Assembly: GCA_021787985.1 (NCBI GenBank)
Contig: JAJYLG010000008.1
Span: 2,821-66,820, forward strand
Direction of reading: 5' to 3'
From: Chloroflexota bacterium
Lineage (GTDB): Bacteria > Chloroflexota > Dehalococcoidia > DSGV01
DNA length: 64,000 nucleotides
Shown: positions 51,422 to 63,148 of the stretch, piece after piece
Numbering within the stretch: position 1 is the first letter of the stretch
Layout of the letters: every line of letters starts with the position of its first letter
Translations under genes and position numbers: made by a program
Notes under the pieces: model-generated
The model's input: only the letters and a program-made list of their open reading frames with translations
What the model was told of the DNA's origin: nothing
Database searches by the model: none

Positions 51422-52261
51422 ATGTCGCGACCGGTCATCACGTTGCTTACCGACTTCGGGACGCGTGACGCCTACGTCGCGGCCATGCGCGGCGTCCTGC
51501 TGGCCCTGGCGCCGGAGTCGCTGCCGGTGGACATCACCCACCACGTCCCGCCGCAGGATGTGCTCGTCGGCTCGCTGGTCGCGGCGCAGGCGTGGCCGTA
51601 TTTCCCGCAGGGCTCCGTCCACGTAGCGGTGGTCGACCCGGGCGTCGGCACCGCGCGCGCTTCGCTGGCGGTCGAAGCCGGTGGCTCGTGGTTCGTCGGT
51701 CCAGACAACGGCCTGCTCTCGCCCGCCGTGCCGGTGGGCTCGCGGCCGCAGGGGGACCCGACCGTCGCGGCCGTCTGTCCGCTGCCCGAGGGTGTCCGCC
51801 TGTGGCGGATCGATCACGGGCGGCTGTCCCCCGGACGGCCGGTGAGCTCGACGTTCCAGGGACGTGATGTCTTCGCGCCCGCGGCGGCCCGACTGGCACG
51901 CGGCGAACCGGCGGACGCCTTCGCCGCGCCGGCCGACCGACTGTGGTGCTTCCCCGTGCCACAGGCGCGGCGCAGCGTGCGCGGCGTCCTCTCCGGGGTG
52001 GTCCTCTACATCGACCACTTCGGGAACGCGGTCACCAGCATCCGGGAGGAGCAGCTCGTCGCAGGGCTCACCGTCGAGGCGCTGGCGCGTGACCTGGGTG
52101 CGCCGGTGCGCACCTTCGGCGACCTGCACCCCGGGCAGCCGGGGGCGCTGGTCGGCAGCGCCGGCTTCCTCGAAGTGGTCATGCGGGACGGGAGCGCCGC
52201 CGCGGCCCTCGGCATCGGCCGCGGCGACGTGGTCGTCTGCCGGCCGCTGGAGCGGCGATGA
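51422..52261 (+). CDS. SAM hydrolase/halogenase (DUF62) family protein
   Basis: LLTDFG..D, VVDPGVGT.R, GPDNG, STFQGRDVF and YIDHFGN. Confidence 0.88.
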   Translation: MSRPVITLLTDFGTRDAYVAAMRGVLLALAPESLPVDITHHVPPQDVLVGSLVAAQAWPYFPQGSVHVAVVDPGVGTARASLAVEAGGSWFVGPDNGLLSPAVPVGSRPQGDPTVAAVCPLPEGVRLWRIDHGRLSPGRPVSSTFQGRDVFAPAAARLARGEPADAFAAPADRLWCFPVPQARRSVRGVLSGVVLYIDHFGNAVTSIREEQLVAGLTVEALARDLGAPVRTFGDLHPGQPGALVGSAGFLEVVMRDGSAAAALGIGRGDVVVCRPLERR

Positions 52262-53220
52262 CGCGCGTCGTCTTCATGGGCTCCGACCCGTTTTCGCTCC
52301 CCACGTTGCGCGCGCTGCTGGAGTCCGGCTATGAGGTCGTGGCGGCGTATACGCAGCCGTCCAAGCCCGCGGGCCGTGGGCGACGCTCGCTGCCCACGCC
52401 CGTACAGGCTGAGGCCGAGCTTCAGGGGCTGCCCGTCCGCACGCCGGTGACGCTGCGCGACGGCGCCGAGGTGGCGGCGCTGCGTGCGCTGGCCCCCGAC
52501 CTCATCGTCGTCGCCGCCTACGGCCAGATCCTCCGTCCGGCCGTGCTCCACCTGCCGCGCCACGGCTGCATCAACGTGCACGCCTCGCTGCTACCGCGCT
52601 GGCGCGGGGCGGCGCCGGTGGCCGCCGCTATCGCCGCAGGCGATGAGGAGACGGGCGTCTCGATCATGCTGATGGATCCGGGTCTGGACACTGGCCCGGT
52701 GCTCGCGCAGCGCTCCGAGCGTATCCTGCCGGACGACACGACCGCCTCAGTGTCGGAGCGACTGGCAAGGCTTGGTGGTGCGCTACTGATGGAAGTCTTG
52801 CCGGGCTGGCTCAAGGGGGAGCTCGCACCACGGCCGCAGGACGACGCGCGCGCCACGCATGCGCCGCGGCTCAGCCGTGGGGACGGCGAGCTCGACCTGG
52901 CGCGCCCGGCGGCCGAGCTCGAGCGGGCGGTGCGAGCGCTCCACCCGTGGCCGGGCGCGTGGCTCCGGTACGATGGGATCGGGCTGCGGGTGTTGCGCGC
53001 CCTGGCGATTGACGGCTCGGCCGACCCGGGCGCGGTGGTCACGCCGGCGCCGGCAGGGGGGCGGCTGGCGGCGTTTGCGGTCGGGACGGGCAGCGGGTTG
53101 CTGGTGCCGCTCCAGGTGCAGCGTGAGGGACGCAGGCCCGCGACCGCGGCCGAGTGGGCGCGTGGCGAGCGGGCGTTCTCGTCGCTGCGCTTCCAGCCTG
53201 GGCCCGGAAAGGATGCGTGA
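52258..53220 (+). CDS. fmt: Methionyl-tRNA formyltransferase
   Basis: VVFMGS, TQP.KPAGRG, VAAYG.IL and NVHASLLPRWRGAAP. Confidence 0.95.
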   Translation: MTRVVFMGSDPFSLPTLRALLESGYEVVAAYTQPSKPAGRGRRSLPTPVQAEAELQGLPVRTPVTLRDGAEVAALRALAPDLIVVAAYGQILRPAVLHLPRHGCINVHASLLPRWRGAAPVAAAIAAGDEETGVSIMLMDPGLDTGPVLAQRSERILPDDTTASVSERLARLGGALLMEVLPGWLKGELAPRPQDDARATHAPRLSRGDGELDLARPAAELERAVRALHPWPGAWLRYDGIGLRVLRALAIDGSADPGAVVTPAPAGGRLAAFAVGTGSGLLVPLQVQREGRRPATAAEWARGERAFSSLRFQPGPGKDA

Positions 53221-54325
53221 TCCGGTGACGGTGCCGGCCTTCCCTTCCATCTGGGGGCTCGACGACGAAGAGCTCCGGCGGCGTGTGGTCGCGGCGGGGC
53301 TCGATGCGTATCGCGCGCGTCAGCTCCGCGCCTTCACGCTGCGACACCCTGGCGAGGTGGCGACCGACAGCAGCGTGCTTGGGCCGCGGGTGGGCGCGCG
53401 GCTGAGCGCGGTCGTCGACCTCGCGCTGCCGCCCGAGATCGCCCAGCAGCGCAGCGCCGATGGACAGACCGTGAAGTCGCTCCTGCGTCTCGCCGACGGG
53501 GTGACCGTCGAGGCGGTGCTGATGTGCTATTCGCCGGAGGCGGGCAAGCGCGAGCGGCGCACGTTGTGCGTATCGACCCAGGCGGGCTGCGCAATGGGCT
53601 GTGTCTTCTGCGCTACCGGACAGCAGGGACTGGTAAGGGACCTCGACGCCGCGGAGATCGTGGCGCAGGTGACTCACGCGATGCGGCTGCCCGCATCTCG
53701 CGGCCGGTGCCCGACGAACGTGGTCTTCATGGGCATGGGCGAGCCGCTGGCCAACTACCGCGCCACGGTTCGCGCCGTGCGACTGCTGGGCGAGGTGCTC
53801 GGTCTCGGTGAGCGCCGCATCACCCTGTCGACCGTCGGCCTCGTGCCGGCCATGCGTCGCCTGGCGCGCGAGGGGTTGCGGGTCGGGCTGGCAGTGTCGC
53901 TGCACAGCCCGGACGACGCGCTGCGGCGGGAGCTGGTGCCGACGGCGCGGTTCGGCGTGCGCGAGATCCTCGATGCGGCGGACGAGTACACGACGCGGAC
54001 CGGTCGCCGCTACTCGGTCGAGTACGTGCTGATCGAGGGGAGAAACGATTCGTTGCACCTTGCCGGCCGGCTGGCGGACCTGCTGCGCGGGCGCACGTGC
54101 CACGTCAACCTCATCCCGTGGAACTCCGTGCCTGGTCTGCGGGGAGGGCGGCCGTCGCGCAAGCGTACGCTCGCGTTCGAGGCGGCACTGAGCGGACGGG
54201 GCGTCAACGTGACCGTGCGGGTGGAAAAGGGCGTGGAGATCGCGGCCGGGTGCGGGCAGCTCCGCGGGCAAGAAGCAGGCCGGTCCGCCGAAGGCGGACG
54301 GGCGCCGGCCTTCCCGATCTCCTGA
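53213..54325 (+). CDS. rlmN: 23S rRNA/tRNA m2A methyltransferase RlmN (radical SAM)
   Basis: CVSTQAGCAMGCVFC, FMGMGEP, SLH and AAGCGQL. Start taken at ATG 53213. Confidence 0.92.
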   Translation: MRDPVTVPAFPSIWGLDDEELRRRVVAAGLDAYRARQLRAFTLRHPGEVATDSSVLGPRVGARLSAVVDLALPPEIAQQRSADGQTVKSLLRLADGVTVEAVLMCYSPEAGKRERRTLCVSTQAGCAMGCVFCATGQQGLVRDLDAAEIVAQVTHAMRLPASRGRCPTNVVFMGMGEPLANYRATVRAVRLLGEVLGLGERRITLSTVGLVPAMRRLAREGLRVGLAVSLHSPDDALRRELVPTARFGVREILDAADEYTTRTGRRYSVEYVLIEGRNDSLHLAGRLADLLRGRTCHVNLIPWNSVPGLRGGRPSRKRTLAFEAALSGRGVNVTVRVEKGVEIAAGCGQLRGQEAGRSAEGGRAPAFPIS

Positions 54326-56932: not shown

Positions 56933-57230
56933 TGCCTGCCCCCGGTGAGAGCGGGCGGCGAAACCGCCCGCCCGAGTTGGCTCCATTCTCCCACCCGGCC
57001 GGCCGTGGGCTCAAACCGCGGTGCGACAGGCCGCACGCGCAGCGTGCCGCAGCCCGGGGGGGCGGGTCCGGTATTGACCAGGTTCGCGCATGGGACGCCG
57101 ACGAATAGGCCACCCCTATCGAGGGCATCACAACTAGCGATTGGCTGCTGCGGGCGCACGAACGCTACGCTCGTTGTGGACGCCGGTTCTCGACGCCACT
57201 TGCCATGAGCGGCATCCCGGAGGCGACACC

Positions 57231-58301
57231 GTGAAAGCGGTCGTGTTTGACCAGCATGGCGGGCCTGAGGTCCTGCACCACAGCGAGGTTCCGGAGCCCG
57301 AGCTGACGCCCAATGAGGTGATCGTCAAGGTTCGGGCGGCAGCCTGCAACTTCAACGACATCTGGGCACGCCGCGGGCTTCCGGGCATGAAGGTGATCCT
57401 GCCGCACGTGTCGGGTTCGGATGTCGCTGGCGAAGTCGTAGCCGTCGGCTCGGAGGTCGGTCAGGGGGACCGGGCCACAGGCTTCAACAACCTGCCGATC
57501 AAGGTCGGCGATGAGGTCGTGGTGCACTGCGGGCTGTCCTGCCGGGTGTGTGAGGCGTGCACGCGTGGCGACGAGTTCTTTTGCAAACAGTTCAAGATCT
57601 GGGGCTTCCAGACCGGTCCGCTCGACGGCGGCCATGCCGAGTACATTCGCATCCCGGCGGCAAACCTGCTGCCCAAGCCGAAGAACCTCTCCTGGGAGGC
57701 TGCGGCCTCGATCCCACTGGTGCTGGTAACCGTGTGGCGCATGCTGGTCACCCGCGCCCGCATCCGGCCGAACGACTCGGTGCTCATCTGGGGCGCGGCG
57801 GGGGGCCTGGGCTCGATGGCGGTCCAGATCGCGCGACTGTTCAACGCCCATCCGATCGCCGTGATCGGCAGCAGTAAGAAGGAGGAGTTCGTCCGCTGCC
57901 TGGGCGCGGAGCACGTGATCGACCGCTCGCGCGAGAGCGTGCCCGAGGCGGTCAAGCGCATCACCGACCGGCGTGGCGTCGACATCGTGTTCGAGCACAC
58001 CGGCGCTGAGACCTGGCAGGATGGCGTACAGTCGCTGCGCTGGGGCGGCACCCTGGTCACCTGTGGCGCCACCACCGGCTTCATCGGCCAGACCGACATC
58101 CGCTTCTTGTGGAACAAGCAGATGAATCTCCTCGGCTCCCACCTCGGAAACAAGGGCGAGCTGATCGACGCGATGAAGTTCGTGGAGTCGGGACACATTC
58201 GGCCGGTCGTGCATCGCACGCTGCCGCTGAGGGATGCCGCCGAGGCCCAGCGGATCATGGAGAATGCGGAGGTGCAGGGCAAGCTCGTCCTCGTGCCCTG
58301 A
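57231..58301 (+). CDS. Zn-binding medium-chain dehydrogenase/enoyl-CoA reductase-like protein
   Basis: GroES domain, structural Zn motif C..C..C......C, CNFND in place of the catalytic-Zn CHSD, and [11 protein letters not shown] 57231 follows GGAGG. Confidence 0.85.
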
Positions 58302-58323
58302 CCGCTTGCCGCGAGGTGGCTCC

Positions 58324-60000
58324 ATGAACGACGGCCGTGAGCTGGAACGGATCGACCGGGCGCTGCACGCCTGGGAAGAGGGGACGCTGGGGAAAGCGCT
58401 GGGCCGCTCGCCCGAGCGACAGGAGCGGTTCGCGACGTCGAGCGTGGAGGCACGGCGGCTCTACACGCCCCTGGACACGGCGGAGGTCGACTACTCGCGC
58501 GACATCGGCTTTCCCGGTGAGTATCCCTACACGCGCGGCATCCAGCCGACGATGTATCGCGGCCGGCTGTGGACGATGCGCCAGTACGCCGGATACGGCA
58601 CGGCTGAGGAGTCGAACCAACGCTTCCGCTACCTGCTCTCGCAAGGACAGACTGGCCTCTCCGTGGCGTTCGACCTGCCGACACAGCTCGGCTACGACAG
58701 CGACGATCCGATCGCGGCGGATGAGGTCGGCCAGGTCGGTGTCGCCATCGACTCCCTGGCCGACATGGAGACGCTCTTCGCCGGCATCCCGCTGGACCGC
58801 GTCTCCACCTCGATGACGATCAACGCGCCGGCGCCGATCCTGGTGGCGATGTACGTGGCCGTCGGAAAGAAGCAGGGCGTCCGCCCGGACCAGCTCGACG
58901 GAACAGCCCAGAATGACGTGCTCAAGGAGTACGTGGCGCGCGGGACGTACATCTACCCGCCGCGAGCGTCGCTCCGCCTCGCCGGGGACCTGATCGCCTA
59001 CTGCGCGCGGGACGTGCCGAAGTTCAACAGCATCTCCATCTCTGGCTACCACATCCGCGACGCCGGCTCGACCGCCGTGCAAGAGATCGCCTTCACCTTC
59101 GCCAACGCGCTCGAGTACATCGTCGCCGCACAGCGCGCGGGCGCGGATGTGGACGGGTTCGCGCCGCGGATTTCGTGGATCTTCAACACGCATAACCACT
59201 TCTTCGAGGAGGTGGCCAAGTACCGGGCGCTGCGCCGACTGTGGGCCCGGATCATGCGTGAGCGCGTCGGTGCGAAAGACCCTCGCTCGTGGATGCTGCG
59301 CACGCACAGCCAGACCGGTGGCTCGACGCTGATGGCACAGCAGCCGGAGAACAACATCGTGCGCGCGGCGATCCAGGCGCTGGCGGCCGTGCTGGGCGGT
59401 GTGCAGTCGATCGCGCTGTCGTGCTACGACGAAGCGCTGGCGCTGCCCACCGAGGAGGCGCAGCGGATTGCCCTGCGCACGCAGCAGGTCATCGCGCACG
59501 AGTCCGGCGCCGCCGACGTGGTGGACCCGCTGGGCGGCTCGTGGTACGTGGAGCGGCTGACGTCCGAGCTGGAACAGGGCGCGGAGGCGCTGATGGCGGA
59601 GATCGAGTCGATGGGCGGCGCCGTCGCCGTCATCGAGTCCGGCTGGATGCAGCGGCAGATCCAGGACGCCGCCTATCGCTACCAGCAGGCGATCGAGGCC
59701 GGAGGCCAGGTGATCGTCGGCGTGAACCGGTACCGGGTGGAGTCGGAGGAGGCGAAGATCATCTTTCGCGTCGACCCACGGCTGCGCGACGCCCAGTTGG
59801 AGCGTCTGCGGCGGCTGCGGGGGGAGCGCGATGGGACGGCCGCGGGGGCCGCGCTGGCGCGGCTCGAGGAAGCCTGCCGGGACGAGGGCAATGTGATGCC
59901 CGCGATCCTCGAGGCGGTCGAGGCGTACGCCACGCTGGGCGAGATCAGCGGCGCGATGCGCCGGGTGTTCGGCGAGTACCGGGCACCAGTGGCCGTATGA
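58324..60000 (+). CDS. B12-dependent acyl-CoA mutase, substrate-binding (large) subunit
   Basis: [55 protein letters not shown] and DPLGGS. There is no DxH cobalamin-binding domain. Confidence 0.9.
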
Positions 60001-60058: not shown

Positions 60059-60808
60059 ATGGGACCGCTGACAGGCAAGGTCGCGGTGGTCACCGGTGCA
60101 TCTCGAGGGCTCGGTCGCTCGATCGCGTTCGAGCTGGCGAGCAGCGGTGCGCAGGTAGCCGTCAACTACAACACGAGCGCCGAGCCTGCCATGGAGGTCG
60201 CGCGCTGCATCAGCTCCGACGGGTCGCGCGCCGTCACGGTCCAGGCCGACGTGTCGCGCGAGGAGGACGTCCGCCGCATGGTGGACGAGGTGGTTCAGGA
60301 GTTCGGCGGGGTGGACATCCTGGTGAACAACGCGGGTATCAACCGCGACCGGACGCTGCGCAAGATGACTTCTGCTGAGTGGCACGAAGTCATGCGCACG
60401 AACCTGGACTCGGTCTTCTACTGCACGCAGGCGGTGGTCCCGCACATGAGCCAGCGCGGCGGGGGCGTCGTGGTCAACATGTCGAGCATCATCGGCCGGA
60501 TGGGCAATGTCGGGCAGGCGAACTACGCCGCCTCGAAGGCCGGCATGATCGGCTTCACCAAGGCGGCGGCGCGCGAGCTGGCGCGCGATAACATCCGCGT
60601 GGTGGCGGTGTGCCCCGGCTTCGTCGAGACGGACATGCTCGCCGGCGTGCCGGAGCAGGCCCGCGAGCGGCTGCTGACACAGGTGCCGCTGGGCCGGTTT
60701 GGGAAGCCGGGGGACGTGGCGCGGCTGGTCCGCTTCCTGTGCAGCGAGGCCGGTTGGATGACCGGCGCGATCCTCGACCTGAACGGCGGACACTACATCC
60801 CGAGCTGA
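60059..60808 (+). CDS. SDR oxidoreductase, PhaB/FabG-like (acetoacetyl-CoA reductase-like)
   Basis: TGASRGLG, NNAGINRD..LRKM, GQANYAASK and PGF.ETDM. Confidence 0.88.
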   Translation: MGPLTGKVAVVTGASRGLGRSIAFELASSGAQVAVNYNTSAEPAMEVARCISSDGSRAVTVQADVSREEDVRRMVDEVVQEFGGVDILVNNAGINRDRTLRKMTSAEWHEVMRTNLDSVFYCTQAVVPHMSQRGGGVVVNMSSIIGRMGNVGQANYAASKAGMIGFTKAAARELARDNIRVVAVCPGFVETDMLAGVPEQARERLLTQVPLGRFGKPGDVARLVRFLCSEAGWMTGAILDLNGGHYIPS

Positions 60809-60907
60809 CATCGGGGGGGAGGGGTGAGCGCGCGGGGGTACGCCTTCTCCAGCCGGCCCCCGCGCGCTACCTTTGCCGTGGGCCGATTGCCCCGATCGGA
60901 GGCGCAG

Positions 60908-61906
60908 ATGACCACCGTCGAACAGGCCGCCAGCTCGCCTGCGCGCTCGTTCCGGCGCGAGCTGCCCACCGTCCGCGCGGCCGTCATCCAGGCGGAGTCG
61001 CCATTCCTGGACATCGATGCCGGCGTGGAGAAGGCGTGTCGGCTGATCGAGGAGGCACGTCGAGGCGGGGCGCGCGTGATCGCCTTCCCGGAGACCTGGC
61101 TGCCTGGCTATCCGTTCTGGCTGTGGACCGAGCGCACGATCTCCTCCGGCCTCTTCCTCGACTTGTTCGAGAACGCCGTCGAGATCCCCGGCCGGGTGAC
61201 CGAGACGCTCGGCGAGGCAGCGCGGCGCGCCGGAGCGTGGACCGTCATCGGAGTGAACGAGCGAACGACACTGGTCCCGGGAACGCTCTACAATACCCAG
61301 CTCTTCCTCGCGCCGGACGGCTCGGTCGCGCTGGCGCGGCGCAAGGTGATGCCGACGCACGTGGAGCGCACCGTGTGGGGCTGGGGTGGCGCCGAGGGGT
61401 TGCGGGTGCTCGACACGCCCGCCGGCCGGCTCGGCGGGCTCATCTGCTGGGAGCACGAGATGCCACTGGTGCGCCAGGCGTTGCACGAGCAGGGCGAGCA
61501 GGTGCACGTCGCCGCCTGGCCGGCGATGCGCAGCCAGAACAAGCACATCGACTTCGGCTGTCGGCAGTACGCCTTCGAGGGCGCCTGCTTCGTCCTGGTT
61601 GCGGGCGGACTGTTCGACCCCGCTCGCTGGGAAGGACGGTTCGGGCAGCAGACCGGTCGCGCGGCGGCCAACGGCGGCTCGGCGATCATCGCGCCATCGG
61701 GCGAGTACCTGGCGGGGCCGGTCTACGATGCAGAGGTGGTGCTGTACGCGGACCTGGACCTGCGGATGTGCGCACAGCACAAGTACTGGGTGGACGTGGC
61801 CGGTCACTACCATCGCCCCGACCTGCTGCGGCTCGACTGGCCCGCGGGCCGGCCGTACGAGGGCGGGACGCGTCCGGAGGTGGAGGAGCCGGCGGACGAG
61901 GAGTGA
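60908..61906 (+). CDS. Nitrilase (carbon-nitrogen hydrolase)
   Basis: E-K-C triad in FPETW.PGYP, RRKVMPT..ER and LICWEH, plus DVAGHY.RPD. The start may be GTG 60824. Confidence 0.88.
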   Translation: MTTVEQAASSPARSFRRELPTVRAAVIQAESPFLDIDAGVEKACRLIEEARRGGARVIAFPETWLPGYPFWLWTERTISSGLFLDLFENAVEIPGRVTETLGEAARRAGAWTVIGVNERTTLVPGTLYNTQLFLAPDGSVALARRKVMPTHVERTVWGWGGAEGLRVLDTPAGRLGGLICWEHEMPLVRQALHEQGEQVHVAAWPAMRSQNKHIDFGCRQYAFEGACFVLVAGGLFDPARWEGRFGQQTGRAAANGGSAIIAPSGEYLAGPVYDAEVVLYADLDLRMCAQHKYWVDVAGHYHRPDLLRLDWPAGRPYEGGTRPEVEEPADEE

Positions 61907-61963
61907 GCCCGGCCTGCCGTGCGCGGAGGGGAGGCGCAGTCAGGCGACATAAGGAGGATACAC

Positions 61964-63148
61964 GTGAACGAAGCCGTCATCGTTAGCGCGGCGCGGACGC
62001 CGATCGGCACCTTCGGCGGTGTCTTCACCGACGTTCCGGCCACGACGCTGGGCGAGGTGGCCATCCGCGCGGCCCTGGAGCGCGCCGAGGTCGAGCCGTC
62101 AGCGGTCGACGAGGTGATCATGGGCAACGTCCTGCAGGCGGGCCTGGGGATGAACCCGGCACGGCAGGCGGCGCTGGCGGCAGGTATCCCCGACTCGGTC
62201 CCGGCGATGACGATCAACTTCGTCTGCGGCTCGGGTTTGCGCGCCGTCGCGCTGGCGGCGCAGGCGATCCGGCAGGGCGACGCTGAGATCGTGGTGGCCG
62301 GCGGTATGGAGAACATGAGCCGCGCGCCGTACCTGCTACAGAACGCGCGCTTCGGCTACCGAATGAACGACGGCACGCTCCACGACAGCATGACCACGGA
62401 TGGTTTGACCTGCGCCCTGGAGCACTGCCACATGGGCGTCACTGCCGAGAACGTGGCGGCCGACTGGGGCGTGAGCCGCGAGGACCAGGACGCCTTCGCC
62501 CTCGAAAGCCAGCGACGGGCCGCCGCGGCCTGGGAGGCGGGCCGCTTCGCCGACGAGGTCGTGCCGGTGACCGTGCCCGGCCGCAAAGGCAGTATGACCG
62601 TGGACCGTGACGAGCATCCGCGACCGCAGACGTCGCGAGAGGCGCTCGCCGGCCTGCGGTCCGCGTTCAAGCGGGACGGTACGGTGACGGCCGGGAACGC
62701 TTCGGGGATCAACGATGGCGCCGCTGCGACGGTAGTCATGTCGCGCGCGCGGGCCGTTGAACTGGGGCTGAAGCCGCTGGCTGTCATCCGGTCGTACGCC
62801 TGGGCGGGCGTGGCGCCCCGGGTGATGGGCATCGGTCCGGTGCCGGCGACGCGCAAGGCGCTGGCTCGCGCGGAGATCAGCGCCGAGGACCTGGACCTGG
62901 TCGAGGCGAACGAGGCCTTCGCCGCCCAGTCGGTGGTGGTCGCCCGTGAGCTCGGGCTGGACGCGGCCAAGCTGAACGTCAACGGCGGGGCGATCGCGCT
63001 GGGGCATCCGATCGGGGCTAGCGGCGCGCGCATTCTGACGACGTTGCTGTACGAGATGAAGCGCCGCAACGCGCACCTGGGGCTGGCGACGCTCTGCATC
63101 GGCGGCGGCATGGGCATCGCCATGGTCGTGCAGAACGGCGACCATTGA
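61964..63148 (+). CDS. Acetyl-CoA C-acetyltransferase (thiolase)
   Basis: [19 protein letters not shown] and LCIGGG. GTG start follows AAGGAGG. Confidence 0.93.

What the first reader, a model, noticed from the sequence alone, without database searches (positions are those of the whole stretch)
58324..60000. Acyl-CoA mutase with a non-canonical substrate pocket ([11 protein letters not shown] in place of QSLHTNSxDEA)
Seen: it keeps the MCM-type Tyr in MRQY, the Arg in EYVARGT and the His in LRTHSQT, but the conserved QSLHTN strand reads QSIALS. Established (recalled): substitutions at the MCM His/Asn pocket positions define ethylmalonyl-CoA mutase, and Tyr to Phe/Ile defines ICM/HCM. This combination fits none of them. 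Inference: an uncharacterised mutase subfamily with a new substrate.
Basis: partly seen in the sequence, partly recalled or inferred. Interest (0 to 1): 0.55.

Follow-up and report, generated by a model that had tools for sequence, protein, structure and literature searches.

The report
Probable ethylmalonyl-CoA mutase of new lineage
This gene belongs to an undescribed, conserved branch of the vitamin-B12 acyl-CoA mutases that split off from ordinary methylmalonyl-CoA mutase, has a remodelled pocket wall, and in related bacteria sits next to crotonyl-CoA carboxylase/reductase, so it most likely does the ethylmalonyl-CoA mutase step rather than acting on a new substrate.

Summary
The 558-aa mutase catalytic subunit (58324-60000, +) keeps Tyr88, Arg206, His243, His328 and Gln330. 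The invariant QSLHTNS strand reads QSIALSC.

The change is not a one-off. More than 130 homologues from Chloroflexota and Dormibacterota MAGs share the A-L-S-C change, along with W285, I286 and T327. These lie on three neighbouring barrel strands. The group forms one clade (SH-aLRT 96-98) beside the canonical split MCMs. Every genome that carries it also has a canonical MCM.

Gene context points to ethylmalonyl-CoA chemistry.
- A bona fide crotonyl-CoA carboxylase/reductase (CCR) lies within 4 kb, on the same strand, in at least 10 loci.
- In a 201-genome phylum sample, 7 of 8 CCR-positive genomes carry the motif, against 2 of 193 others.
- The CCR-positive relatives whose mutases were listed hold no canonical ECM.
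- PhaB-like reductase, MaoC hydratase, acyl-CoA dehydrogenase, CitE/HpcH lyase and thiolase recur nearby.
- A canonical ECM reads Q-L-P at the same three positions.

Caveats:
- This genome has no CCR. A CCR-related Zn-MDR occupies that slot, and a nitrilase sits in the operon.
- No B12 subunit is adjacent.
- Nothing has been tested biochemically.

The scan reached a similar reading earlier on other DNA (e1-773204).

The parts
58324..60000 (+). Acyl-CoA mutase catalytic (large) subunit, 558 aa, 'ALS-type'; no B12-binding domain
   Evidence: PF01642 at 731 bits and TIGR00641 at 748 bits. It falls below the MCM equivalog cut-off (645 < 876). The best solved relatives are HCM large subunit 4r3u (577 bits) and human MCM (486 bits). 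The AF2 model has pLDDT 86 and shows a (beta/alpha)8 barrel.
58313..58319 (+). Shine-Dalgarno-like GAGGTGG, 4 nt before the ATG at 58324
   Evidence: Read directly from the sequence.
58585..58587 (+). Tyr88, the MCM-type Tyr (P. shermanii Tyr89)
   Evidence: It aligns with Tyr in all MCM-type sequences.
58939..58941 (+). Arg206, the carboxylate-binding Arg of MCM/ECM (P. shermanii Arg207)
   Evidence: The residue's role is recalled from the MCM literature.
59176..59181 (+). Trp285-Ile286 on barrel strand 283-289; canonical split MCMs have Phe-Phe
   Evidence: Clade-defining difference: 100% in each group. Strand assignment from the model.
59302..59313 (+). Thr327-His328-Ser329-Gln330 on strand 327-331. 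His328 and Gln330 are kept. Thr327 replaces the Phe of split MCMs.
   Evidence: The canonical ECM (L174) has Gly at 328.
59404..59436 (+). [11 protein letters not shown] strand. Ala364-Leu365-Ser366-Cys367 replace His-Thr-Asn-Ser. Glu370 is kept.
   Evidence: The residues sit at the C-terminal end of the last barrel strand, 362-364.
57141..58301 (+). Zn-type MDR reductase related to CCR but not a CCR; stops 22 nt before the mutase start
   Evidence: TIGR01751 at 270 bits against a cut-off of 378.55. It lacks the CCR-specific insert and carries a Cys-rich structural-zinc motif. It occupies the position that bona fide CCR holds in G029, G081, G148 and G156.
60059..60808 (+). PhaB/FabG-like SDR (acetoacetyl-CoA reductase type)
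   Evidence: An orthologous SDR lies directly downstream of the ALS mutase in 7 further loci, and 3 kb downstream in an eighth.
60824..61906 (+). CN-hydrolase / nitrilase-family gene inside the operon; role unexplained
   Evidence: PF00795 at 166 bits. TIGR04048 at 237 bits against a cut-off of 503. It was not found beside any other ALS locus.
61919..63148 (+). Acetyl-CoA C-acetyltransferase (thiolase)
   Evidence: TIGR01930 at 510 bits. Orthologues lie near the ALS mutase in L037, L043 and L049.

Best explanation
The gene encodes the catalytic subunit of an adenosylcobalamin-dependent acyl-CoA mutase. It belongs to a distinct paralogous clade, here called 'ALS-type', that arose beside the split-type methylmalonyl-CoA mutases.

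The clade keeps the residues that hold a substrate carboxylate and thioester: Tyr88, Arg206, Tyr242/His243, Gln196, His328 and Gln330. It also keeps Glu370. One wall of the pocket is rebuilt on three adjacent barrel strands: F285W, F286I, F327T, H364A, T365L, N366S and S367C.

The most likely reaction is (2R)-ethylmalonyl-CoA <-> (2S)-methylsuccinyl-CoA, the ethylmalonyl-CoA mutase step. The enlarged, more hydrophobic wall would make room for the extra methyl group on the carbon that carries the radical. As a bare large subunit, the protein must pair with a B12-binding small subunit encoded elsewhere. The probable partner is the one in the canonical MCM operon on contig C31, which also encodes MeaB and an epimerase.

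Shown: the residues, the clade, its conservation, and its genomic linkage to CCR and other enzyme types of the ethylmalonyl-CoA (EMC) pathway.
Inferred: the substrate, the pocket geometry and the sharing of the small subunit.

This genome has no CCR. The adjacent Zn-MDR, SDR and thiolase could make butyryl-CoA from acetyl-CoA. An acyl-CoA carboxylase would then have to carboxylate it to ethylmalonyl-CoA. That step is speculation.
For: 1. The signature is conserved in all 120 best homologues. It is also present in MAGs of Tepidiformaceae, Dehalococcoidia, Caldilineales and Dormibacterota.
2. The clade is monophyletic: FastTree 98, IQ-TREE LG+G4 98, LG+C20 96.
3. Eleven positions separate it cleanly from 73 canonical split MCMs. 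Eight of them (285, 286, 327, 360, 364-367) lie on three adjacent strands.
4. A canonical ECM from a CCR-positive Binatia MAG (664 aa, fused) reads Gly328 and Q364-L365-P366. ALS and ECM therefore share T365L and the loss of His364 and Asn366.
5. Bona fide CCR (TIGR01751, 526-583 bits, cut-off 378.55) lies on the same strand within 0.15-4 kb in G029, G081, G148, G156, G121, G092, L103 and L077, and within 7 kb in L068 and L089.
6. In the class sample of 41 genomes, 6 of 7 CCR-positive genomes are ALS-positive, against 3 of 34 CCR-negative ones.
7. In the phylum sample of 201 genomes, 7 of 8 CCR-positive genomes carry the motif, against 2 of 193 others. One of the 7 is the unpublished G209.
8. 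The six CCR-positive, ALS-positive relatives contain only canonical MCM, an ICM-type mutase and the ALS type. None has a canonical ECM.
9. Recurrent neighbours are a PhaB-like SDR, a MaoC or HadAB-like hydratase, an acyl-CoA dehydrogenase, an HpcH/CitE-like or DUF6986 lyase-like protein, and a thiolase. This matches the content of the actinobacterial ccr-ecm-mml-mch-mcd operon (PMC4606968).
10. Every ALS-positive genome examined also has a canonical MCM-type gene (H-T-N; H-V-N in G005).
11. There is precedent for a CCR working with a split mutase whose B12 subunit is encoded elsewhere: ActD/MatB (PMC5719088).
Against: - There is no biochemical data for any member of the clade.
- The window's own genome (95.6% complete) has no bona fide CCR and no hit to the HpcH lyase of the relatives. 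G005 (100% complete) and G032 also lack CCR.
- His328, which is Gly in the canonical ECM, is retained.
- G032 carries an additional 'H-V-P' mutase.
- G019 has CCR but no mutase at all, so CCR does not strictly require one.
- That positions 364-366 contact the substrate rests on recalled literature and on their place at the catalytic end of the barrel, not on a measured distance.
- The genomes are related to one another, so the co-occurrence counts overstate independence.
- The nitrilase in this operon is unexplained.
Confidence: 0.55

Rival explanations
1. It is simply a second methylmalonyl-CoA mutase isozyme. The A-L-S-C strand would be a tolerated or regulatory variation, for example altered sensitivity to inhibitory CoA esters or different cofactor handling.
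For: All residues known to bind the methylmalonyl/succinyl group are kept: Tyr88, Arg206, His243, Gln196, His328 and Gln330. Its closest characterised-type relatives are split MCMs, at 62% identity to the genome's own canonical MCM. Some canonical-clade members vary at 366, reading HTC or HSC. Three ALS-positive genomes lack CCR.
Against: Every ALS-positive genome already has a canonical MCM, with its own small subunit, MeaB and epimerase. H-T-N is invariant in 73 of 73 canonical split MCMs, and also in fused MCM and ICM-type sequences. The changes are concerted over three strands and conserved across two phyla. The clade is tightly linked to CCR and not to propionyl-CoA carboxylase genes. A substitution in this strand of human MCM (p.Thr387Pro) is listed among methylmalonic aciduria patients (PMC11097538).
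Confidence: 0.2
2. It acts on another 2-substituted malonyl-CoA or succinyl-CoA derivative that is not yet assigned to any mutase. Examples are a longer alkylmalonyl-CoA as proposed for ActD/MatB, or a hydroxylated dicarboxylyl-CoA.
For: The signature matches no characterised class. His328 is retained, unlike in ECM. In this genome the operon has a non-CCR MDR and a nitrilase. An A-L-[S/C] strand recurs in unrelated uncharacterised clades. Split mutases next to CCR homologues are proposed to take hexylmalonyl-CoA (PMC5719088).
Against: The CCRs linked to the clade score as equivalogs of primary-metabolism crotonyl-CoA carboxylase/reductase. The neighbours are the C4/C5 EMC enzyme types rather than secondary-metabolite genes. 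The clade is widespread in small-genome heterotrophs.
Confidence: 0.2
3. It is a catalytically dead or non-B12 paralogue, for instance a regulatory or scaffolding protein, because no B12-binding subunit is encoded nearby.
For: No B12 small subunit lies near any of the 25 ALS loci examined for it. Only one MCM-type small subunit was found in G005 and in G015.
Against: All catalytic and CoA-binding positions that are invariant across the family are kept. The clade is strongly conserved over two phyla. Unlinked small subunits are known for split mutases such as ActD (PMC5719088).
Confidence: 0.05

Closest known systems
Split-type methylmalonyl-CoA mutase large subunit (archaeal/Chloroflexota/Firmicutes type, McmA-like; EC 5.4.99.2)
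   Same: Same fold, length and subunit organisation. The two groups are nearest neighbours in the tree, with 55-63% identity. Tyr88, Arg206, Tyr242/His243, Gln196, His328, Gln330 and Glu370 are identical.
   Different: Eleven clade-defining substitutions, including H364A, T365L, N366S, S367C, F285W, F286I and F327T. The gene is not in the mcm-epimerase-small subunit-meaB operon. It is linked to CCR instead.
Ethylmalonyl-CoA mutase (Ecm/MeaA; EC 5.4.99.63), as in Rhodobacter sphaeroides (Erb et al. 2008, recalled) and the Streptomyces emc operon (PMC4606968)
   Same: Tyr and Arg are kept. The H-T-N strand is altered, with Leu at 365 and loss of His364 and Asn366. Both are genomically linked to ccr and to hydratase, dehydrogenase and lyase genes.
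   Different: ECM is a fused protein of about 660 aa with a C-terminal B12 domain, Gly at 328 and Pro at 366. It sits on a separate long branch. The ALS type is a bare 558-aa large subunit with His328 and Ser366.
ActD/MatB mutases of actinonin and matlystatin biosynthesis (PMC5719088)
   Same: A split large subunit working with a CCR homologue. In ActD the B12 subunit is encoded elsewhere in the genome.
   Different: Those enzymes are described as members of the HCM subclass in secondary-metabolite clusters, with hexylmalonyl-CoA as the proposed substrate.
2-Hydroxyisobutyryl-CoA mutase large subunit HcmA (PDB 4r3u)
   Same: It is the best-scoring solved structure by sequence (577 bits) and has the same split architecture.
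   Different: HcmA has Ile for Tyr88, Gln for Arg206, Asp in STDFD and the canonical QSLHTN strand (alignment).

Membership tests
Acyl-CoA mutase large subunit family (PF01642 / TIGR00641) | Full-length match to the mutase TIM-barrel domain above the curated cut-offs | tested here: met
   PF01642 at 730.8 bits (cut-off 22.1). TIGR00641 at 747.8 bits (cut-off 303.8).
Methylmalonyl-CoA mutase (EC 5.4.99.2) | Tyr89, Arg207 and His244 (P. shermanii numbering), which bind the substrate carboxylate and thioester | tested here: met
   Tyr88, Arg206 and His243 are present.
Methylmalonyl-CoA mutase (EC 5.4.99.2) | Invariant QSLHTN strand (His364-Thr365-Asn366) | tested here: not met
   The strand reads QSIALS. 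H-T-N is found in 73 of 73 canonical split MCMs, and A-L-S in the ALS clade.
Methylmalonyl-CoA mutase (EC 5.4.99.2) | Score above NCBIfam's MCM equivalog cut-off (PRK09426) | tested here: not met
   644.9 bits against a cut-off of 876. The model describes the fused form, so a split subunit is penalised.
Methylmalonyl-CoA mutase (EC 5.4.99.2) | Operon with a B12 small subunit, MeaB and an epimerase | tested here: not met
   None of these is in the window operon. The canonical paralogue on C31 has all three.
Ethylmalonyl-CoA mutase (EC 5.4.99.63) | Replacement of His328 and Asn366 (Gly and Pro in canonical ECM) with Tyr and Arg kept | tested here: inconclusive
   Asn366 is replaced (Ser) and Thr365 becomes Leu, as in the ECM reference L174. 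His328 is retained.
Ethylmalonyl-CoA mutase (EC 5.4.99.63) | Membership of the ECM/MeaA clade; fused C-terminal B12 domain | tested here: not met
   The ALS clade is separate from L174 and from the P0136/P0126 groups. The ORF has no B12 domain.
Ethylmalonyl-CoA mutase (EC 5.4.99.63) | Genomic association with crotonyl-CoA carboxylase/reductase and other EMC-pathway genes | tested here: inconclusive
   This is met for the clade: at least 10 loci have CCR within 7 kb, and 7 of 8 CCR-positive genomes in the phylum sample carry the motif. It is not met in the window's own genome, which has no CCR and only a related Zn-MDR.
Ethylmalonyl-CoA mutase (EC 5.4.99.63) | Catalysis of ethylmalonyl-CoA <-> methylsuccinyl-CoA | not testable with these tools
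   Needs an enzyme assay.
Isobutyryl-, 2-hydroxyisobutyryl- and pivalyl-CoA mutases (ICM/HCM/RCM/PCM) | Phe, Ile or Leu in place of Tyr89 and Gln in place of Arg207 (plus Asp117 in HCM) | tested here: not met
   The query has Tyr88, Arg206 and Ala115. The genome's ICM-type paralogue C26 has Phe and Gln.
AdoCbl-dependent enzyme (holoenzyme) | A B12-binding domain with DxHxxG, in cis or as a partner subunit | tested here: inconclusive
   There is none in the ORF or the operon. Five mutase-type B12 subunits lie elsewhere in the genome, each next to another large subunit. G005 and G015 have only one MCM-type small subunit for 2-3 large subunits.

The most novel reading that the evidence does not exclude
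The ALS-type mutases are a third, independently evolved solution for rearranging 2-substituted malonyl-CoA esters. They borrow the B12 subunit and chaperone of methylmalonyl-CoA mutase.

In CCR-less genomes such as this one, they would act on a substrate or in a route not yet described. Two possibilities are a CCR-independent path from butyryl-CoA and a nitrile- or amide-linked branched acid route involving the operon's nitrilase.
Probability: 0.2. Interest if true: 0.7.

Novelty: new variant of a known kind. Interest (0 to 1): 0.55.

Why it matters
If the ALS type is an ethylmalonyl-CoA mutase, several things follow.
- Ethylmalonyl-CoA chemistry would be present in Chloroflexota and Dormibacterota. 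It goes unrecognised there because annotation pipelines label this gene a generic MCM-family protein and find no ecm.
- ECM activity would have evolved at least twice from MCM-like ancestors, by remodelling the same pocket strand in different ways. That gives enzyme engineers a second natural template for retuning B12 mutases.
- One B12-binding subunit would serve two or three different catalytic subunits.

Tepidiforma genomes are reported to lack a complete glyoxylate cycle (PMC10284905). An alternative acetyl-CoA assimilation module in their relatives therefore bears on carbon metabolism in these abundant uncultured groups.

Tried and rejected
Contexts came from the genome search, the fetch from genomes and the search for related loci instead.
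- The key structural papers could not be read: Jost 2015, Erb 2008 and Kurteva-Yaneva 2015. Full-text searches for Asn366/His328 found nothing useful. The pocket role of residues 364-366 therefore rests on recall, on the barrel position in the model, and on comparison with an ECM-type sequence.
- I first took representative P0136 ('HVP') for canonical ECM. NCBIfam showed that its B12 domain is N-terminal, and a plasmid search found no named meaA. I replaced it with the 664-aa Binatia protein L174, which has Gly328 and Pro366. L174 is ECM by signature and CCR co-occurrence, not by name.
- Regex-based signature calls were unreliable and were replaced by alignment columns.
- The idea that the window's MDR is a CCR was rejected: it scores 270 bits against a cut-off of 378.55 and lacks the CCR insert.
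- The HCM/RCM reading suggested by the thiolase-plus-PhaB context was rejected, because Tyr88 and Arg206 are kept and Asp117 is absent.
- A single-sequence AF2 model of DUF6986 was unusable (pLDDT 37).
- A test for gene conversion in L055 showed no clear mosaic.
- Cluster look-ups gave no organism names, so I could not tell whether a cultured strain carries the gene.

Full report
**What is there**

The ORF 58324-60000 (+) encodes a 558-aa protein. It is a complete acyl-CoA mutase TIM-barrel domain: PF01642 at 731 bits and TIGR00641 at 748 bits. It has no B12-binding domain. The start codon is preceded by GAGGTGG, and many 558-aa homologues cover the query end to end.

- MRQY (Tyr88)
- EYVARGT (Arg206)
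- GYH (Tyr242/His243)
- LRTHSQT (His328, Gln330)
- [11 protein letters not shown] (residues 361-371)

By sequence, the nearest solved structures are the HCM large subunit 4r3u and then the human and bacterial MCMs. HCM's Ile, Gln and Asp signature is absent. The score stays below NCBIfam's MCM equivalog cut-off (645 < 876).

**The genome**

The window is contig C152 of a 3.5-Mb draft with 70% G+C, 95.6% complete. Its nearest database relatives are Dehalococcoidia/Tepidiformaceae MAGs.

The genome holds seven mutase large subunits:
- a canonical MCM on C31 (Tyr/Arg, QSLHTNS), in an operon with an epimerase, a B12 small subunit and MeaB
- an ICM-type on C26 (Phe/Gln)
- the gene studied here
- four divergent ones

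Neither this gene nor C26 has a B12 subunit beside it.

**A conserved clade, not a one-off**

- All 120 best homologues (70-75% identity) read QS[ILM]ALSC[YF]DEA with Tyr, Arg and LRTH.QTGG.
- The same type occurs in 9 of 41 class-level relatives.
- It also occurs in MAGs labelled Tepidiformaceae, Dehalococcoidia, Caldilineales and Dormibacterota.
- Trees recover it as one clade: FastTree 98, IQ-TREE LG+G4 98, LG+C20 96. It sits among the canonical split MCM, ICM-type and fused MCM groups. It is 62% identical to the genome's own canonical MCM.
- One AVS variant (L055) carries the full constellation but groups with canonical MCMs. It shows no clear mosaic, and its placement is left unresolved.

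**The remodelled pocket wall**

I compared 50 ALS sequences with 73 canonical split MCMs. Eleven positions are fixed differently:

| Position | ALS type | Canonical split MCM |
|---|---|---|
| 221 | A | T |
| 285 | W | F |
| 286 | I | F |
| 303 | L | A |
| 327 | T | F |
| 360 | V | T |
| 364 | A | H |
| 365 | L | T |
| 366 | S | N |
| 367 | C | S |
| 481 | F | L |

In an AF2 model (pLDDT 86, pTM 0.89), residues 283-289, 327-331 and 362-364 are the last three strands of the barrel. Residues 364-366 sit at the C-terminal end of the last strand. The known catalytic residues Tyr88, Gln196, Tyr242/His243, His328 and Gln330 lie at that same end. No coordinates or ligand distances were available, so contact with the substrate is inferred and not shown.

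I also identified a canonical ECM-type protein in a CCR-positive Binatia MAG. It is 664 aa and, by its length, fused to a B12 domain; this was not checked. It reads Tyr, Arg, Gly328 and R-A-M-Q-L-P. This matches the recalled ECM signature, in which His328 and Asn366 are replaced. ALS and ECM therefore alter the same strand and share Leu365, but ALS keeps His328.

An A-L-[S/C] strand also appears in two unrelated uncharacterised clades. This suggests it is a recurrent way of reshaping this wall.

**Gene context**

In this window the genes are packed 12-58 nt apart, in this order:
1. Zn-MDR
2. mutase
3. PhaB-like SDR
4. nitrilase-family gene
5. thiolase

Counts across 20 ALS loci, including the window:
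- The SDR is directly downstream in 8.
- A MaoC hydratase is close by, mostly directly upstream, in 6.
- A thiolase is nearby in 4.
- An HpcH/CitE-like lyase is nearby in 4.
- An acyl-CoA dehydrogenase is nearby in 3.

A bona fide crotonyl-CoA carboxylase/reductase (TIGR01751 well above cut-off) lies on the same strand:
- 0.15-4 kb from the mutase in G029, G081, G148, G156, G121, G092, L103 and L077
- within 7 kb in L068 and L089

The Caldilineales operon (L103) reads CCR, acyl-CoA dehydrogenase, DUF6986, ALS mutase, HadA/HadB-like hydratase. DUF6986 clusters partly carry HpcH and malate-synthase barrel hits. In enzyme types this equals the actinobacterial ccr-ecm-mml-mch-mcd operon (PMC4606968).

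**Co-occurrence with CCR**

| Sample | CCR-positive genomes with ALS | Other genomes with ALS |
|---|---|---|
| Class, 41 genomes | 6 of 7 | 3 of 34 |
| Phylum, 201 genomes | 7 of 8 | 2 of 193 |

- One of the seven in the phylum sample is G209, which is unpublished.
- The reversed-pattern control gave no matches.
- The genomes are related to one another, so Fisher values of 1e-4 and 1e-10 overstate independence.
- The six CCR-positive, ALS-positive relatives have only canonical MCM, an ICM-type mutase and the ALS type. No canonical ECM was found.
- Every ALS-positive genome also has a canonical MCM-type gene.
- G005 and G015 have a single MCM-type small subunit, next to the canonical MCM. The ALS subunit probably shares it. 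ActD offers a precedent for an unlinked small subunit (PMC5719088).

**Reading**

The clade is best explained as a mutase for ethylmalonyl-CoA, or a close 2-alkylmalonyl-CoA, that arose separately from the known ECM lineage. I put this at about 0.55.

**Against this reading**

- The window's genome has no CCR and no hit to the relatives' lyase. Its MDR is CCR-related, but it lacks the CCR insert and has a structural-zinc motif.
- G005 and G032 also lack CCR.
- G032 has an extra 'HVP' mutase.
- G019 has CCR but no mutase.
- His328 is kept.
- The nitrilase is unexplained.

In CCR-less genomes ethylmalonyl-CoA could come from carboxylation of butyryl-CoA. That is speculation.

**Rivals**

- An MCM isozyme: 0.2.
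- A dead paralogue: 0.05.

**Prior knowledge**

No paper in the library links the EMC pathway to these phyla or describes this clade. Sources name the protein only 'methylmalonyl-CoA mutase (family protein)'.

Earlier notes of this scan, on other genomes, reached a similar view. They describe a variant EMC-type operon with an unusual split mutase (e1-773204) and MaoC-mutase-PhaB clusters. I saw these after forming the reading (note), and they are not independent evidence.

**Verdict**

The 'uncharacterised subfamily' claim is supported. The 'new substrate' claim is not favoured. This is a new variant of a known kind of enzyme, of moderate interest, and it can be tested directly by a substrate screen.

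Noticed in passing
own genome contigs C13, C25+C86, C10, C53 (loci L004-L008, L009-L014): Besides MCM, the ICM-type and the ALS-type, the genome has four more mutase large subunits whose pocket residues match no known class (for example Val or Leu at 88, and QSLHCCS, QSLSVNS, QAVEISA or GMELKAY strands). Each sits next to its own B12 subunit. Relative G032 has 14 mutase genes.
   Followed up: partly
window 60824-61906: A CN-hydrolase/nitrilase-family gene is embedded between the SDR and the thiolase. It scores well below the Nit6803 family cut-off (237 bits against 503). It was not found beside any other ALS-type mutase locus, so it is specific to this genome's operon.
   Followed up: partly
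L103:4317-6662: In a Caldilineales MAG, the crotonyl-CoA carboxylase/reductase is fused to C-terminal CBS-domain pairs and heads the CCR-ACAD-DUF6986-mutase-hydratase operon.
   Followed up: partly
L103:7872-9359: DUF6986 (PF22484, 574 bits) sits where the lyase would be expected in an EMC-type operon. Atlas clusters of this family partly carry HpcH_HpaI and malate-synthase barrel hits. It has no PDB relative by sequence, and the single-sequence AF2 model failed.
   Followed up: partly
L055:9971-11632: A QSLAVSC variant has the full W285/I286/T327 constellation but groups with canonical MCMs in two trees and shows no clear mosaic. This could be independent origin, a deep branch or an artefact.
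   Followed up: partly
proteins P0144, P0167, P0170; genomes G089, G101: An A-L-[S/C] strand at 364-366 recurs in unrelated mutase clades. One is HCM-like with Asp115. The other reads QTMALCC and has also lost His328 and Gln330.
   Followed up: no
genome G019: A class-level relative (96% complete) has a bona fide CCR but no PF01642 mutase gene at all.
   Followed up: no
window 51422-54325: A SAM hydroxide adenosyltransferase-family gene, a formyltransferase and a radical SAM gene lie in a row on the + strand, downstream of a family-5 solute-binding protein.
   Followed up: no
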